A stretch of 6,407 nucleotides of DNA from a virus (Duplodnaviria > Heunggongvirae > Uroviricota > Caudoviricetes): positions 1 through 6,407 of IMG/VR virus record IMGVR_UViG_2737471848_000023, one strand, 5' to 3'. The notes under the pieces are model-generated. The model worked only from the letters and a program-made list of their open reading frames with translations. It made no database searches and was not told the origin of the DNA. Of the stretch, positions 465 through 6,407 are shown piece by piece (position 1 is the stretch's first letter; each line of letters begins with the position of its first letter). The translations under genes were made by a program, and so were the position numbers.

Positions 465-510
465 TTATTTTCACCCCCTCGTTTAAAAAGTTTTTAGTTG
501 TGCCTCCCCC

Positions 511-736
511 CCCTCTACCCATCTACCCGAATGCTCATCATGTCAGTAATGGCGAGGCTTTCAGCGGGTAGATAGCTTTTGGGGCTCCTCTACCTGCCGT
601 CTACCCTGCTACCTGAAACTGATAAAATCAGGTAGAAGAGGTAGAGAGCTTTTATTAGCCTTCTACCTGGCCCTCTACCCACTTATCATGTTGAATAATA
701 TGTATTTATTTCATTCGGGTAGATGGGGTAGAGGGC
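511..736. repeat. iteron array, candidate replication origin
   Basis: At least 11 copies of the 6-bp core TCTACC / GGTAGA in both orientations: forward at 514, 522, 589, 600, 662, 674 (plus GCTACC at 608), reverse at 567, 631, 640, 718, 727. Adjacent same-orientation copies are 8-12 bp apart. An AT-rich segment (681..716) lies inside the array. Sits immediately 3' of the primase/helicase gene. Confidence 0.6.
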
Positions 737-748
737 TTTTACAAAAAA

Positions 749-3622: not shown

Positions 3623-3839
3623 GGTGCACCTCCTGCACATCAGCCATGATAATTTTTCCGGCCTTATCCAGTGCCTGATCGGCTTTTAGCTGCACAAATG
3701 CTAAATAATGGAAGATGCATTCTGATTCTCTGGCTGCGTGTTTATGCGCCCTGTCAGCAATAACAGAAATATCAATCAGCGCGTGCATCAGTGTAGTGAG
3801 TGCGGCGGCGGTTGCGTCCGGTGTGGTTTTATTGTGCAT
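3615..3839 (-). CDS. hypothetical small protein (74 aa)
   Basis: ORF from track; AGGGGGAA 5 nt upstream of ATG at 3839; 11-nt overlap with the upstream gene; stop overlaps next start. Confidence 0.6.
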   Translation of the reverse strand: MHNKTTPDATAAALTTLMHALIDISVIADRAHKHAARESECIFHYLAFVQLKADQALDKAGKIIMADVQEVHHA

Positions 3840-4035
3840 AGGTTTCCCCCTGACGAATACGGGCAGCGAATACCATCACGCAGCCAGCCGGAGATTGCTG
3901 GCGTGCTTCCTGTTCGCTGGTGGCCTCAATGGTAATCACGCGCGGTTGTGCCGTGCTCAGGGCGATAAAACGCCAGATGTATTTATTCAGGTTGTGCGAG
4001 TCCCGCCCTTGCGGGTGTGTGGTATGATTTCTCAT
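3829..4035 (-). CDS. hypothetical small protein (68 aa), first gene of the leftward operon; tentatively Icd-like
   Basis: C-terminal part of track ORF 3829..4623. ATG at 4035 with GAGG about 7 nt upstream (GATTATCGAGGCAGCT ATG). Sequence MRNHTTHPQGRDSHNLNKYIWRFIALSTAQPRVITIEATSEQEARQQ... The Icd-like resemblance is from memory only and unverified. Confidence 0.5.
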   Translation of the reverse strand: MRNHTTHPQGRDSHNLNKYIWRFIALSTAQPRVITIEATSEQEARQQSPAGCVMVFAARIRQGETYAQ

Positions 4036-4132
4036 AGCTGCCTCGATAATCTTGCTATCGTTGGTGGTTAGAAGCCCTGCGAGTGGTAACGACACTTGCG
4101 GGGCTTTGCATTTATGCACCTTGATAACCTCA

Positions 4133-4168
4133 AGGTGTGGCCCACTATATTCTTTAGGTGTGGCCCAC
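4133..4168. promoter_or_regulatory. two perfect 13-bp direct repeats AGGTGTGGCCCAC, each containing the palindrome GTGGnCCAC; candidate operator
   Basis: Exact copies at 4133..4145 and 4156..4168, 23 bp start to start (about two helical turns). They lie between the divergent RHH gene and the leftward operon and overlap the predicted -10 and spacer/-35 of the leftward promoter. Confidence 0.55.
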
Positions 4169-4173
4169 GTCAA
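4144..4173 (-). promoter_or_regulatory. candidate sigma70 promoter for the leftward small-ORF/primase operon
   Basis: On the minus strand: -35 TTGACG (4173..4168), 18-bp spacer, -10 TATAGT (4149..4144). Predicted start near 4137 gives an about 100-nt leader before the ATG at 4035. Prediction by eye only. Confidence 0.4.
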
Positions 4174-4175
4174 GA

Positions 4176-4204
4176 GTTTTATTTGTGCTTTTTCTGTGTA
4201 TACT
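4176..4204 (+). promoter_or_regulatory. candidate promoter for the RHH gene
   Basis: -10 TATACT at 4199..4204 immediately preceded by TG; the -35 region (about 4176..4181) is a poor match, so this may depend on an activator or be mis-assigned. Back to back with the leftward promoter. Confidence 0.3.
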
Positions 4205-4234
4205 GTCCCCCACCAATCCAACAGAGGAATAGAA

Positions 4235-4414
4235 ATGGCAACGGGTACAACAAACGCAAAATCACAAGCTCTAAAGGCTCGTGTACCACACGAAATAGTA
4301 AACGAGATGGAATTAGTGAAAGAATCAGGCGAAAGCACATCACAATTCATCATTGCGTCAATGCAAGGCGAGATCAAACGCCGCCAGCGCCGCAAGGCCA
4401 AAGAGCAGGAATAG
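4235..4414 (+). CDS. small ribbon-helix-helix (CopG/Arc-like) DNA-binding protein (59 aa)
   Basis: ATG at 4235 with GAGGA 6 nt upstream; stop TAG at 4412..4414. Sequence MATGTTNAKSQALKARVPHEIVNEMELVKESGESTSQFIIASMQGEIKRRQRRKAKEQE has the RHH pattern: a short beta strand (KARVP), helix, G-x-S/T turn (SGESTSQ), second helix, basic tail. The only plus-strand gene in the window. Confidence 0.6.
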   Translation: MATGTTNAKSQALKARVPHEIVNEMELVKESGESTSQFIIASMQGEIKRRQRRKAKEQE

Positions 4415-4502
4415 CCCACCAGCAAGCCAGCACACTGAGCACATTGCCCACCAGACAGCAAATCGCTATGATGTTCGGGCTTATGTTTAGTGTTTTCCCA
4501 TT

Positions 4503-4530
4503 GGCGACCGCCACAGGTCGCCTTTGTTTT
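4503..4530 (+). terminator. intrinsic terminator (plus-strand orientation)
   Basis: Perfect 7-bp GC-rich stem GGCGACC (4503..4509) / GGTCGCC (4516..4522) with 6-nt loop, followed by TTTGTTTT (4523..4530). On the minus strand the hairpin is followed by AATGGGAAAACA, so it is not obviously a terminator for alpA. Confidence 0.6.
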
Positions 4531-4549
4531 ATGTGTCATATGCTCCCCT

Positions 4550-4759
4550 TTACGCTGCCTTACCTGCATTAATACGATCCCTGCTTTTAACCCATTCCAT
4601 AACCTCAGACTTAACCCAGCCAACAGAACGACCGCCGAGACTGATACGTGAGGGGAAGCGGCCCTGCTTTTCCATCTCGTAACGAGTTGTGCGGCAAACG
4701 CCTGTTAGCTCTCTGCATTCTTTTTCGCGGATTACACGATCTTCATTTATTTCGCGCAT
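4550..4759 (-). CDS. alpA: AlpA-family transcriptional regulator (69 aa)
   Basis: ORF from track; AGGA 6 nt upstream of ATG at 4759. Sequence VIREKECRELTGVCRTTRYEMEKQGRFPSRISLGGRSVGWVKSEVMEWVKSR matches the AlpA pattern (..TG.sr.T.Y......FP....LG.RsVGW...Ev.eWv..R). Lies directly downstream of int on the same strand. Confidence 0.9.
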   Translation of the reverse strand: MREINEDRVIREKECRELTGVCRTTRYEMEKQGRFPSRISLGGRSVGWVKSEVMEWVKSRDRINAGKAA

Positions 4760-5088
4760 AAAAAGTCCTACATAAAATTACGTATAGAAATTTTTGTTTC
4801 GCTGTGGATATACGGAAAGATATTACTTCTTAGCTTTTCTTACCTCTTAAATTGAATACGTAACCTTTCTGAACTTTATGTTCGTCAAAGTTCGCTAGAG
4901 TTTGCTGCTGTTCATAAAATCGTGTCACGAGTTTTTAAGCGACGCAACAAAAAATGTCGTCATTTGGTATTACACTTAAATTATCTCATTAAAAACAAAT
5001 AGATAAACCATCAGGTGTTGGAACAATCAAGAAACAGAGAATAAGGATTCAGGAGAGTGAATTTCAATTTTTTCGATGATTGACAAAT

Positions 5089-5168: not shown

Positions 5169-6407
5169 TCAAGAATTTTGGGAGTAAATTCGCGGGGTCA
5201 TAACAACGATTTTTTCATCATTGTTCTGGAGAAGCTCGAGACGCTCACCCCATAGATTAAGAGCGTCACGTTTTGCATCAAGATAACGGGAGTGATTATA
5301 GACTCGTTGCATTCCTGGCAACTGGTGCGCGGTTAGCTGCTCCACTACATGAGGATCAACGCCTAAATCGTTCAGCATCGTTGTAAACGTGTGCCGGATG
5401 TCGTGCAACGTCCATGGGGCTTGATTAATGCGTCTGTGTGCCGTTCTTCCGTACTCTGATACGGATGATTGCCCTTTCAGTTCTCCGAGCAATAATCCCG
5501 TGTGCCTGTTCTGCTCCACCAGCTTCATGACAAACGGCAAGATCGCTTCCGGTATTGGCCTGAATATTGCTACCTTCGTTTTGCTGTGTTCTTTCGGCAC
5601 GGTCCAGAGCATTTCTTTAAAATCCCATTCCTGGACCTCAGAGCGTCTTAGCTCAGTGGTACGACATCCGAAGACAATCAGGAGGCGAATCAGGGCGCTG
5701 TAGTACGGTGGGTAAATTTTTTCATCAAGGGCGCGTAGTAATTCCCCAAGCTCCTTGTTTGTTAGTACGCGCTCGCTTATTTCTGCTTTTTTCCCAACAT
5801 CACCGACAACCATATCATCGAGAACGTTGGTAATTGCGTAGCGTCGTTTTCGGCAGTACTTAAGCGCCTGTTTGCACACCTGTAGCAAAAATCCGGCTGA
5901 TACCGGATTACGCTTAGCAAGCTGGTCAAAACAGGCCAGCCAGTGGCGTAGCTCGCATTTTTCCAGTGGCATAGCGCCAATCTGGCTAATTATGTGTTTA
6001 TTGATCCGGCTTTTCAGTGATTCGTAGTCAGTGCGCTTTTCCTTTGCGTACGATTCAAGCCAGTAAGTGAGAGCTTCCTTAACCGTCACGGGGGCTAAAG
6101 CGTCCTGTACAGCATGATTAAGTTCATAGCGCGGATTTTTCCCCTCAGCCAGCCAGGCGCGACACTGTGCCGCTTTTTCCCTGGCAGCTTTCAGGCTCAG
6201 ATCGGGATAATTGCCCAGCCTCAGACGTTCCGGTGATATCTGCCTACCAGTTCCGGCCCTGTAAGTGAAATACCAGGTTAACAGGCCATTGGTTGAATGC
6301 CTTACGCTAAGGTTGCCACCATCATTAAAAAAGGTGCTTTTTGTGGTTGGTGATCCGCTTAATTTTCGTAAAAGAGTGTCGCTAAGTCTATGAATTGCCC
6401 TGCTCAT
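5169..6407 (-). CDS. int: tyrosine site-specific integrase (412 aa)
   Basis: Full ORF with ATG at the last 3 nt of the window. N-terminal arm-type domain (NDGGNLSVRHSTNGLLTWYFTYR...RLRLGNYPDLSLKAARE). C-terminal catalytic region with HDIRHTFTTML (H-x-x-R) and the tyrosine region YNHSRY. Overall layout matches P4/CP4-type integrases. Confidence 0.95.
   Translation of the reverse strand: MSRAIHRLSDTLLRKLSGSPTTKSTFFNDGGNLSVRHSTNGLLTWYFTYRAGTGRQISPERLRLGNYPDLSLKAAREKAAQCRAWLAEGKNPRYELNHAVQDALAPVTVKEALTYWLESYAKEKRTDYESLKSRINKHIISQIGAMPLEKCELRHWLACFDQLAKRNPVSAGFLLQVCKQALKYCRKRRYAITNVLDDMVVGDVGKKAEISERVLTNKELGELLRALDEKIYPPYYSALIRLLIVFGCRTTELRRSEVQEWDFKEMLWTVPKEHSKTKVAIFRPIPEAILPFVMKLVEQNRHTGLLLGELKGQSSVSEYGRTAHRRINQAPWTLHDIRHTFTTMLNDLGVDPHVVEQLTAHQLPGMQRVYNHSRYLDAKRDALNLWGERLELLQNNDEKIVVMTPRIYSQNS

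What the first reader, a model, noticed from the sequence alone, without database searches (positions are those of the whole stretch)
4117..4414. RHH protein with twin palindrome-containing direct repeats over divergent promoters: candidate protein-based switch for the replication operon
A 59-aa RHH protein is encoded divergently from the small-ORF/primase operon. Two perfect 13-bp direct repeats (AGGTGTGGCCCAC at 4133..4145 and 4156..4168), each containing GTGGnCCAC, overlap the -10 and spacer of the best leftward promoter candidate. RHH proteins typically bind tandem repeats as dimers of dimers, so this looks like a repressor-operator pair. P4 immunity is RNA-based and Gram-negative PICIs are described as AlpA-activated, so a dedicated RHH repressor here would be a distinct regulatory design.
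Basis: partly seen in the sequence, partly recalled or inferred. Interest (0 to 1): 0.7.

Follow-up and report, generated by a model that had tools for sequence, protein, structure and literature searches.

The report
Overlooked RHH repressor-operator module in PICI
A tiny DNA-binding protein and three matching binding sites sit over the back-to-back promoters of an E. coli phage-satellite island, and comparison of about 165 related islands indicates it is a so far undescribed repressor controlling the island's replication genes.

Summary
AGGTGTGGCCCAC occurs exactly at 4133-4145 and 4156-4168, over the only good leftward sigma-70 promoter (TTGACG-18-TATAGT). A 59-aa gene (4235-4414, +) lies divergent from the Icd-like/DUF4222/primase operon.

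The window is an EcCICFT073-type Gram-negative PICI, and EcCICFT073 itself carries the same gene and the same sites.

Across 165 related loci the real unit is an 11-bp site, GTG-N5-CAC. Each locus has three copies:
- O1 over the leftward start site.
- O2 in the leftward spacer, next to the -35.
- O3 over the conserved -10 of the small gene's own promoter.

N5 is shared within a locus but falls into about 14 groups among loci. It tracks residues 12 and 14 of the protein (R16 is invariant). It does not track the flanking Icd-like or AlpA genes, which recombine freely.

Best reading: an autoregulated RHH repressor of the PICI early/replication promoter, with immunity-like specificity types. No held paper describes it. 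Binding and repression are inferred, not shown.

The parts
4235..4414 (+). 59-aa YlcI/YnfO-family gene, predicted ribbon-helix-helix DNA-binding protein (MATGTTNAKSQALKARVPHEIVNEMELVKESGESTSQFIIASMQGEIKRRQRRKAKEQE)
4135..4145 (+). Operator O1, GTGTGGCCCAC. It overlaps the last 2 bp of the leftward -10 and the expected leftward start site.
   Evidence: An O1 with 0-1 mismatch to O2 is present in every specificity class, 22-26 or 35-36 bp from O2, direct or inverted.
4158..4168 (+). Operator O2, GTGTGGCCCAC, in the spacer of the leftward promoter and abutting its -35.
   Evidence: Its position is fixed at -77 from the ATG in the related loci, followed by the conserved GTCAAG, which is the -35 on the other strand.
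4203..4213 (+). Operator O3, CTGTCCCCCAC. This is a degenerate copy overlapping the -10 and start site of the RHH gene's own promoter.
   Evidence: Position fixed at -32 from the ATG in the related loci. It carries the locus-specific N5. The variant CTGTCCCCCAC is found in 27 of 36 loci of this class, and CTGTGGCCCAC in 7.
4144..4173 (-). Leftward promoter P-left for the Icd-like ... primase operon: -35 TTGACG 4173-4168, 18-nt spacer, -10 TATAGT 4149-4144.
   Evidence: It is the only minus-strand promoter-like site in 3800-4800, with 10 of 12 matches. The -35 is nearly invariant across 96 distinct upstream sequences. The start site is not mapped.
4199..4204 (+). -10 hexamer TATACT of the rightward promoter P-right of the RHH gene. 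The -35 is poor, and a T-rich tract lies upstream.
   Evidence: GTGTATACTG is the best conserved non-operator block in the intergenic region. The consensus scan did not call it because the -35 is weak. This part is inferred.
4503..4532 (+). Intrinsic terminator of the RHH gene: GGCGACC-GCCACA-GGTCGCC followed by TTTGTTTTAT. It has no U-tract in the opposite direction.
   Evidence: and the sequence.
4065..4109 (-). Conserved hairpin HP2 in the 5' leader of the leftward operon, followed by the invariant UCUNACCA.
   Evidence: Covariance model R1 hits the same position in all 53 loci of the high-stringency search (E up to 1e-4), with the window at 28.5 bits. Of 13 pairs, 9 show changes on both sides. 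The covariation score is 0.26 against 0.086 in shuffles (0 of 500 as high) and at most 0.113 when slid.
4117..4137 (-). Leader hairpin HP1 (CACCUUGA-GGUUA-UCAAGGUG) at the 5' end of the predicted leftward transcript. It overlaps O1 by 3 nt.
   Evidence: The fold of 4138-4030 gives MFE -36 kcal/mol and z = -4.1. Comparable hairpins are seen in many relatives.
3829..4035 (-). First gene of the regulated operon: a 68-aa Icd-like protein. It is followed by small ORFs, DUF4222 (2500-2799) and a D5/P4-type primase (749-2503).
   Evidence: NF033153 69.8 bits. Pfam DUF4222, D5_N and DUF5906. phrog_864 primase.
4550..4759 (-). alpA (AlpA-family regulator), convergent with the RHH gene and co-directional with the replication operon. 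The integrase lies at 5169-6407 (-).
   Evidence: Pfam Phage_AlpA E 7.9e-18. An AlpA homologue lies convergent and 3' of the RHH gene in 103 of 165 loci, and no other arrangement was seen.

Best explanation
The 59-aa protein is a ribbon-helix-helix dimer. It recognises 11-bp sites of the form GTG-N5-CAC.

Proposed recognition: the invariant R16 of each strand of the two-stranded beta-ribbon reads the invariant outer GTG and CAC. The hypervariable residues 12 and 14 read the locus-specific N5.

Proposed regulation: occupancy of O2 (in the spacer, touching the -35) and O1 (over the -10 edge and start site) excludes RNA polymerase from P-left. This keeps the Icd-like/small-ORF/DUF4222/primase operon of the PICI silent. 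Occupancy of the weaker O3, over the -10 and start of its own promoter, gives negative autoregulation.

The many N5/beta-strand specificity types behave like phage immunity types, so each PICI lineage controls only itself.

What is shown here:
- the sites and their fixed promoter positions;
- their co-variation with residues 12 and 14;
- their independence from the flanking genes;
- family membership.

What is inferred:
- the RHH dimer fold;
- actual binding;
- the sign of regulation;
- that this is the maintenance repressor, relieved after helper-phage-dependent alpA expression.
For: Sites and promoter overlap are established.

Three sites per locus lie at fixed positions. O2 is at -77 and O3 at -32 from the ATG, and O1 is 22-36 bp further on. 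N5 is shared within a locus and differs between loci. There are 22 beta-strand motifs and 21 N5 variants, forming about 14 groups, among 165 loci, 77 distinct proteins and 108 distinct upstream sequences.

Columns 12 and 14 predict the operator class best (uncertainty coefficients 0.68 and 0.72). Other columns of equal entropy predict it less well (0.32-0.52). R16 is invariant.

hhalign puts residues 12, 14 and 16 on Arc Q9, N11 and R13.

Controls:
- An Icd-like protein at least 88% identical to the window's occurs with 9 operator groups.
- AlpA at least 88% identical occurs with 4 groups.
- Within the QALKARVP class the operator is constant, while the Icd-like protein ranges over 44-100% identity and AlpA over 37-100%.

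The sites occur nowhere else in the whole island or in EcCICFT073.

Against: There is no experiment: binding, repression and start sites are all unmeasured.

The fold evidence is weak:
- Foldseek and PDB sequence searches found nothing.
- No Pfam RHH model reaches its threshold.
- The AF2 monomer models the N-terminal segment as short helices rather than a strand.
- A dimer could not be modelled.

The operators and the beta-strand codons are only 65-140 bp apart, so part of the co-variation could be linkage.

The O1-O2 spacings (22-26 or 35-36 bp) are not integral helical turns.

P-right has a poor -35 and was not called by the scan.

Published data show that AlpA is needed to activate the downstream genes. 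P-left may therefore not be the main route of expression.
Confidence: 0.72

Rival explanations
1. The protein does bind these operators, but it is not the maintenance repressor. It would be a transient feedback regulator (Cro- or Arc-like) made after induction to shut the early operon down. Alternatively it modulates rather than blocks transcription, and the island is kept quiet simply by lack of AlpA.
For: AlpA is genetically required, and when over-expressed it is sufficient for EcCICFT073 induction. The RHH gene is convergent with alpA in 103 of 165 loci. O3 is systematically weaker than O1 and O2 in several classes, as at promoters that must stay partly on.
Against: The gene has its own conserved promoter pointing away from the early operon, so it can be expressed while that operon is off. 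The immunity-like diversification into about 14 specificity groups is what is expected of a repressor that must discriminate between co-resident elements.
Confidence: 0.17
2. The GTG-N5-CAC sites are bound by another factor (AlpA, the Icd-like protein annotated 'transcriptional repressor' in PHROGs, integrase, or a host protein). The small ORF merely hitch-hikes next to them.
For: phrog_6196 and phrog_1743 label the Icd-like family 'transcriptional repressor'. The sites and the ORF are physically linked.
Against: The same Icd-like protein pairs with 9 operator groups and the same AlpA with 4, so neither can determine N5. A host factor cannot explain locus-specific N5. The best predictors of N5 are residues 12 and 14 of the small protein, alternating with the invariant R16.
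Confidence: 0.05
3. The RHH is the antitoxin-like partner of the Icd-like putative cell-division inhibitor, forming a toxin-antitoxin-type addiction pair.
Against: The genes are divergent, not co-transcribed. There is no co-variation between the two proteins, since one Icd-like protein occurs with 9 RHH specificity groups. The RHH has no extra C-terminal toxin-binding domain, only an invariant basic tail.
Confidence: 0.04
4. The repeats are a chance duplication or replication iterons with no regulatory role.
For: Short repeats can arise by slippage. The 13-mer search with 3 mismatches allowed is not enriched in the window as a whole.
Against: The sites are conserved at fixed promoter positions in 165 loci, with concerted change of all three copies. 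A separate iteron field lies downstream of the primase at about 503-744.
Confidence: 0.01

Closest known systems
P22 immI Arc and Mnt (ribbon-helix-helix repressors at the divergent Pant/Pmnt promoters)
   Different: There is no detectable family-level homology: hhalign probability is 14%, and Pfam Arc is not hit. Here there are three separate 11-bp sites rather than one 21-bp operator bound by a tetramer. The host element is a satellite, not a phage, and the regulated genes are replication genes, not an antirepressor.
Stl/Rpr master repressors of SaPIs and other Gram-positive PICIs
   Same: The element type and logic are the same: a repressor gene transcribed divergently from the excision/replication operon, proposed to keep the island quiescent until a helper phage acts.
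   Different: Stl/Rpr are larger helix-turn-helix proteins encoded on the int side. Here the protein is a 59-aa RHH, int and alpA are co-directional with the replication operon, and the repressor gene is convergent with alpA. An anti-repressor mechanism is unknown here.
EcCICFT073, the prototype Gram-negative PICI (AlpA-activated)
   Same: The gene order is identical: int, alpA, YlcI/YnfO gene, Icd-like, small ORFs, DUF4222, primase. The protein is nearly identical (3 differences) and O1, O2 and O3 are identical.
   Different: Published descriptions name only AlpA as regulator and call a global repressor 'unclear'. EcCICFT073 also has an extra 57-aa gene downstream of the RHH gene that is absent from the window.
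YlcI/YnfO family (NCBIfam NF041551; E. coli K-12 DLP12 ylcI, Qin ynfO)
   Same: The protein passes the family HMM at 65.5 bits against a cutoff of 30. K-12 YlcI shows the same R-x-P, helix, G-x-x-x-F-S, helix pattern.
   Different: K-12 ylcI lies beside cos and nohD in a lambdoid prophage, not in a satellite switch region. Pfam DUF3950 is not hit by the window protein. No function is known for the family.
P4 / P1 RNA immunity (CI and C4 RNAs upstream of kil or icd)
   Same: An early promoter is followed by a structured, conserved leader RNA and then an Icd-like gene.
   Different: Rfam C4 and isrK give no match in the window, even at E up to 1. No sid/delta/psu genes are annotated in the full island. 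Control here appears protein-based, with an extra leader hairpin of unknown role.

Membership tests
YlcI/YnfO family (NCBIfam NF041551) | Score above the curated cutoff of the family HMM | tested here: met
   65.5 bits against a cutoff of 30, covering residues 9-50 and the whole 42-position model. PGAP gives the same name to the near-identical genes in E. coli 2011C-4251 and CFT073.
Ribbon-helix-helix (MetJ/Arc/CopG) superfamily | Beta-strand, helix A, G-x-S/T turn, helix B topology | tested here: inconclusive
Ribbon-helix-helix (MetJ/Arc/CopG) superfamily | Significant match to an RHH sequence profile | tested here: not met
   No Pfam family reaches its threshold. There are only weak hits to CB_ParB_C (11 of 46 members, best E 0.0045) and PSK_trans_fac (3 of 46). 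A PDB profile search finds none. hhalign to Arc gives P 0.002 and probability 14%.
Ribbon-helix-helix (MetJ/Arc/CopG) superfamily | Obligate dimer forming a two-stranded antiparallel ribbon | not testable with these tools
No multimer predictor is available.
Ribbon-helix-helix (MetJ/Arc/CopG) superfamily | Alternate beta-strand residues determine operator specificity; binding to repeated sites | tested here: met
   This is indirect evidence. Residues 12 and 14 best predict the operator N5 (U 0.68 and 0.72) and R16 is invariant. There are three repeated sites per locus. Physical binding is not tested.
Gram-negative PICI (EcCICFT073 type) | int, alpA and a pri-rep type primase co-directional in an island of about 10-15 kb at a chromosomal att site, without a full phage gene set | tested here: met
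   int 5169-6407, alpA 4550-4759, primase 749-2503. A near-identical island of about 10 kb lies between clpS and cspD and carries SSB, a protease/capsid fusion and PerC. The order is the same in EcCICFT073. Helper-phage induction is not testable here.
P4-like satellite | sid, delta, psu and epsilon genes, and CI/C4-type immunity RNA | tested here: not met
   None of these is annotated in the complete island. Rfam C4 and isrK give no match at E up to 1. tblastn of the RHH protein against 50,697 phage records finds nothing.
Type II toxin-antitoxin RHH antitoxin | Co-transcribed cognate toxin and a co-evolving protein-protein interface | tested here: not met
   The orientation to the Icd-like gene is divergent. 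One Icd-like protein is combined with 9 RHH specificity groups.
SaPI/PICI Stl-Rpr master repressors | HTH repressor homologous to Stl/Rpr and inactivated by a helper-phage protein | tested here: not met
   There is no HTH or any Stl-like Pfam, NCBIfam or PHROG hit. Helper interaction is not testable. The resemblance is functional and positional only.

The most novel reading that the evidence does not exclude
The YlcI-like RHH is the missing master repressor of Gram-negative PICIs. It would hold the replication operon off in the absence of a helper, and it would exist in 14 or more hetero-immune specificity types that let several PICIs co-reside. Induction would work by overriding it. One route is alpA-driven transcription, which is convergent with and antisense to the repressor gene and runs across O3-O1. 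Another is a helper-encoded anti-repressor that targets the invariant EIKRRQR tail. The conserved leader hairpin would add a second, RNA-level checkpoint.
Probability: 0.4. Interest if true: 0.8.

Novelty: new member of a known kind. Interest (0 to 1): 0.64.

Why it matters
Gram-negative PICIs are widespread satellites in Enterobacterales that spread virulence and defence genes. Part of this 1-kb region matches 1474 of 5426 complete E. coli genomes.

Their published regulatory model has only an activator, AlpA. The original paper states that a global repressor is unclear, and later work repeats the AlpA-only model.

A conserved, autoregulated RHH repressor with readable specificity residues and matching operators would do four things:
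- It would complete the switch.
- It would explain how islands stay silent and distinguish self from co-resident relatives.
- It would assign a function to the uncharacterised YlcI/YnfO family.
- It would provide a natural set of about 14 orthogonal repressor/operator pairs of 59 aa and 11 bp, useful for synthetic biology and for engineering PICI-based delivery vehicles.

It is directly testable in the existing EcCICFT073 system, which carries the identical module.

Tried and rejected
Own error: (protein 1 only), 13, 15 and 16 used 4237 as the start and so translated the wrong frame. Those results are void. This wasted one homologue search, the single representative-library job and one genome scan. 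They were repeated correctly where possible.

Searches that found nothing:
- Rfam on the whole window at E up to 1 gave only two spurious miRNA-like hits on the iteron hairpin, and no C4 or isrK.
- No tRNA was found.
- Pfam on the correct protein gave nothing.
- A PDB sequence-profile search gave nothing at E up to 10.
- Foldseek against the PDB gave nothing.
- tblastn against 50,697 phage genomes gave nothing.

Hypotheses rejected:
- The GCCCACCAG repeats 3' of the gene (4411-4427 and 4443-4459) are not extra operators. No class-specific core recurs downstream in other classes.
- There are no operators upstream of alpA or elsewhere in the island.
- The Icd-like protein or AlpA as the site-binding factor.
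- A toxin-antitoxin pairing.
- MAFFT plus RNAalifold on raw leader sequences misaligned the hairpin, so I replaced this with a covariance-model alignment.

Literature: searches for YlcI/YnfO, PICI plus RHH, and a PICI master repressor found no functional description. The repressor reported in EcCIMP1 is an unrelated PerC-like protein.

Full report
OBSERVATION. They extend to a 22-nt unit at 82% identity. The small ORF is real but runs 4235-4414. I first used 4237 by mistake, which voids the protein-1 rows and all. The only minus-strand sigma-70-like site in 3800-4800 is TTGACG (4173-4168), 18 nt, TATAGT (4149-4144), 10 of 12 matches. One repeat therefore fills the spacer up to the -35. The other overlaps the edge of the -10 and the expected start site.

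CONTEXT. The window reads, on the minus strand:
- integrase (5169-6407);
- AlpA (4550-4759);
- an Icd-like protein (3829-4035);
- four small ORFs;
- DUF4222 (2500-2799);
- a D5/P4-type primase (749-2503).

Only the 59-aa gene is on the plus strand. A 98.8% identical stretch lies in E. coli 2011C-4251, in an island of about 10 kb between clpS and cspD. That island also encodes SSB, a protease/capsid fusion and PerC. The prototype Gram-negative PICI, EcCICFT073, has the same order. Its 59-aa protein differs at 3 residues, and its O1, O2 and O3 are identical. The window is therefore an EcCICFT073-type PICI, not a P4-like element. No sid/delta/psu genes are annotated, and there is no C4 or isrK RNA match.

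COMPARATIVE ANATOMY. I collected 10 loci from genomes of other Enterobacterales, 80 from metagenomes and 80 from IMG/VR. In the 165 loci where the ORF could be parsed, the intergenic region has a fixed plan:
- An 11-bp site GTG-N5-CAC at -77 from the ATG (O2), followed by the near-invariant GTCAAG, which is the leftward -35 on the other strand.
- A T-rich tract.
- The conserved block GTGTATACTG, containing the rightward -10 TATACT.
- Overlapping that block, a second site (C/G)TG-N5-CAC at -32 (O3).
- A third site (O1) with 0-1 mismatch to O2, lying 22-26 or 35-36 bp beyond O2, in direct or inverted orientation.

In the window these are O1 4135-4145, O2 4158-4168 and O3 4203-4213. O3 reads CTGTCCCCCAC, a degenerate form found in 27 of 36 loci of this class. 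The general feature is the outer GTG...CAC.

CO-VARIATION. N5 is the same at the sites of one locus but differs between loci, and it tracks residues 11-18 of the protein:

| Residues 11-18 | N5 |
|---|---|
| QALKARVP, QSLKSRVP | TGGCC, TGGTC |
| QSVTARIA | TCTTA |
| KKLEARVP | TCAGC |
| QMTTVRIP | AAATA |
| QLFTVRVP | ATACA |
| LQVSVRLP | AACAC |
| QQLNARFP | AATCG |
| QKISVRIP | ACGGA |
| QQKTARIP | ACTTG |
| QK(L/V)Q(A/T)RAP | GA-N-TC |
| QKMSARVP | GCACC |
| QTIAARVP | TTGAA |
| QQIVSRVP | AATGC |
| KR(I/F)D(A/V)RVP | T(G/C)GGA |

Over 77 distinct proteins, columns 12 and 14 predict the operator class best (0.68 and 0.72). R16 is invariant. Columns of similar entropy elsewhere (27, 31, 58) predict less well, at 0.32-0.52. 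This i, i+2, i+4 pattern is the signature of an RHH recognition strand.

Linkage is the obvious confounder, so I tested the neighbours. An Icd-like protein at least 88% identical to the window's is found with 9 operator groups. An AlpA at least 88% identical is found with 4. Within the QALKARVP class the operator is constant, while the Icd-like protein varies over 44-100% identity and AlpA over 37-100%. Recombination therefore shuffles both flanks, but in this sample it never separates the operators from the recognition strand. The sites occur nowhere else in the island.

MECHANISM. Shown here: the site positions, concerted change of the sites, protein-site co-variation, and independence from the neighbouring genes. 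Inferred: RHH dimers occupy O2 and O1 and occlude P-left, silencing the Icd-like ... primase operon, while the weaker O3 gives negative autoregulation of P-right. The diversification into about 14 groups resembles phage immunity types. It argues for a repressor that must act only on its own element.

How repression is lifted is unknown. alpA is convergent with the RHH gene in 103 of 165 loci, and no other arrangement was seen. The terminator between them has a U-tract only in the RHH direction. alpA transcription, which published work shows to be helper-induced and required for induction, could therefore run antisense through the repressor gene and across the operators. Against this, a terminator-like hairpin lies on the minus strand at 4283-4263. 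That idea is speculation.

LEADER RNA. The predicted leftward 5' leader (4137-4036) folds into three hairpins, with z = -4.1. The middle one (4065-4109, followed by the invariant UCUNACCA) is found by a covariance model at the same place in all 53 loci of the high-stringency search. 9 of its 13 pairs change on both sides. Its covariation score is 0.26, against 0.086 in shuffles (0 of 500 as high) and at most 0.113 when slid. Its role is unknown. It is not a C4 or isrK match and lacks a U-tract.

LITERATURE. Fillol-Salom et al. 2018 (PMC6092414) state that a global repressor in Gram-negative PICIs is unclear and that AlpA is an activator. The cf-PICI preprint repeats the AlpA-only model. A 2026 survey lists YlcI/YnfO merely as a 'prophage-associated protein'. 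The EcCIMP1 'repressor' is an unrelated PerC-like protein. No held paper links PICIs to an RHH regulator. The library is incomplete, so prior description elsewhere cannot be excluded.

VERDICT. As a mechanism it is an ordinary kind of module, an RHH repressor with operators over promoters. As biology it is an apparently unrecognised and well-defined component of a much-studied satellite family, and it is directly testable in EcCICFT073.

Scores:
- Confidence that the protein binds these sites and represses P-left with autoregulation: 0.72.
- Interest: 0.64.

Noticed in passing
window 503-744: A dense field of CTCTACC/GGTAGAG iterons lies between the primase stop and the next gene. At least 10 copies occur in both orientations, flanking AT-rich stretches. 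It includes the long hairpin at 656-737 that Rfam mis-scores as a miRNA. This is probably the PICI replication origin.
   Followed up: partly
window 4065-4109 (-), and the same position in all 53 loci of the high-stringency search (E up to 1e-4): A conserved hairpin sits in the 5' leader of the leftward operon, followed by the invariant UCUNACCA. 9 of its 13 pairs show compensatory changes. Its function is unknown, and it does not match Rfam C4 or isrK.
   Followed up: yes
window 4117-4137 (-) and 4044-4060 (-): Two further leader hairpins. One is at the very 5' end and overlaps O1 by 3 nt. The other lies just upstream of the Shine-Dalgarno sequence of the Icd-like gene. The whole leader folds with z = -4.1.
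   Followed up: partly
window 4203-4213, and the O3 sites of relatives: The autoregulatory site O3 is systematically degenerate in several classes. In this class it reads CTGTCCCCCAC in 27 of 36 loci. In the QQKTARIP class O3 has AACGC where O2 has ACTTG. This suggests deliberately weaker self-repression.
   Followed up: partly
window 4281-4291 and 4263-4283 (-): A GTG-N5-CAC-like sequence (GTGTGGTACAC on the minus strand, 2 mismatches to the operator) lies inside the codons for R-V-P-H-E of the RHH gene. A terminator-like hairpin on the minus strand overlaps it. This may be coincidence arising from the conserved codons.
   Followed up: no
window 4411-4427 and 4443-4459: A 17-nt direct repeat (ATAGCCCACCAGCAAGC and ATTGCCCACCAGACAGC) lies in the 3' untranslated region of the RHH gene and shares GCCCAC with the operator. 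No equivalent class-specific motif is seen downstream in other classes, so it is probably not an operator. A promoter-like site, TTGCCC-17-TATGAT (4444-4472), overlaps it.
   Followed up: yes
L125 2078-2364 (also L135 and L137); L013 10243-10416: Some relatives carry a second small RHH-like ORF (59 aa, MSTHKNERRGNPPFQFRLDPDLREKMEKAQ...) between the first RHH gene and alpA, with a second copy of the leader hairpin next to it. EcCICFT073 instead has an extra 57-aa basic protein gene downstream of its RHH gene. The window has neither.
   Followed up: partly
Icd-like genes of the related loci (for example L038 and L135): The Icd-like first gene is highly mosaic. The same 68-aa protein sits next to 9 operator classes, and in some loci it is fused or extended to about 180 aa. 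The boundary between the leader and the operators looks like a recombination hot spot.
   Followed up: partly
L174 8252-8446 (E. coli K-12 DLP12 ylcI): The K-12 family member YlcI (64 aa, with the same R-x-P ... G-x-x-x-F-S pattern) lies next to the lambdoid cos site and divergent from nohD (terminase small subunit). That is a quite different context from the PICI switch.
   Followed up: partly
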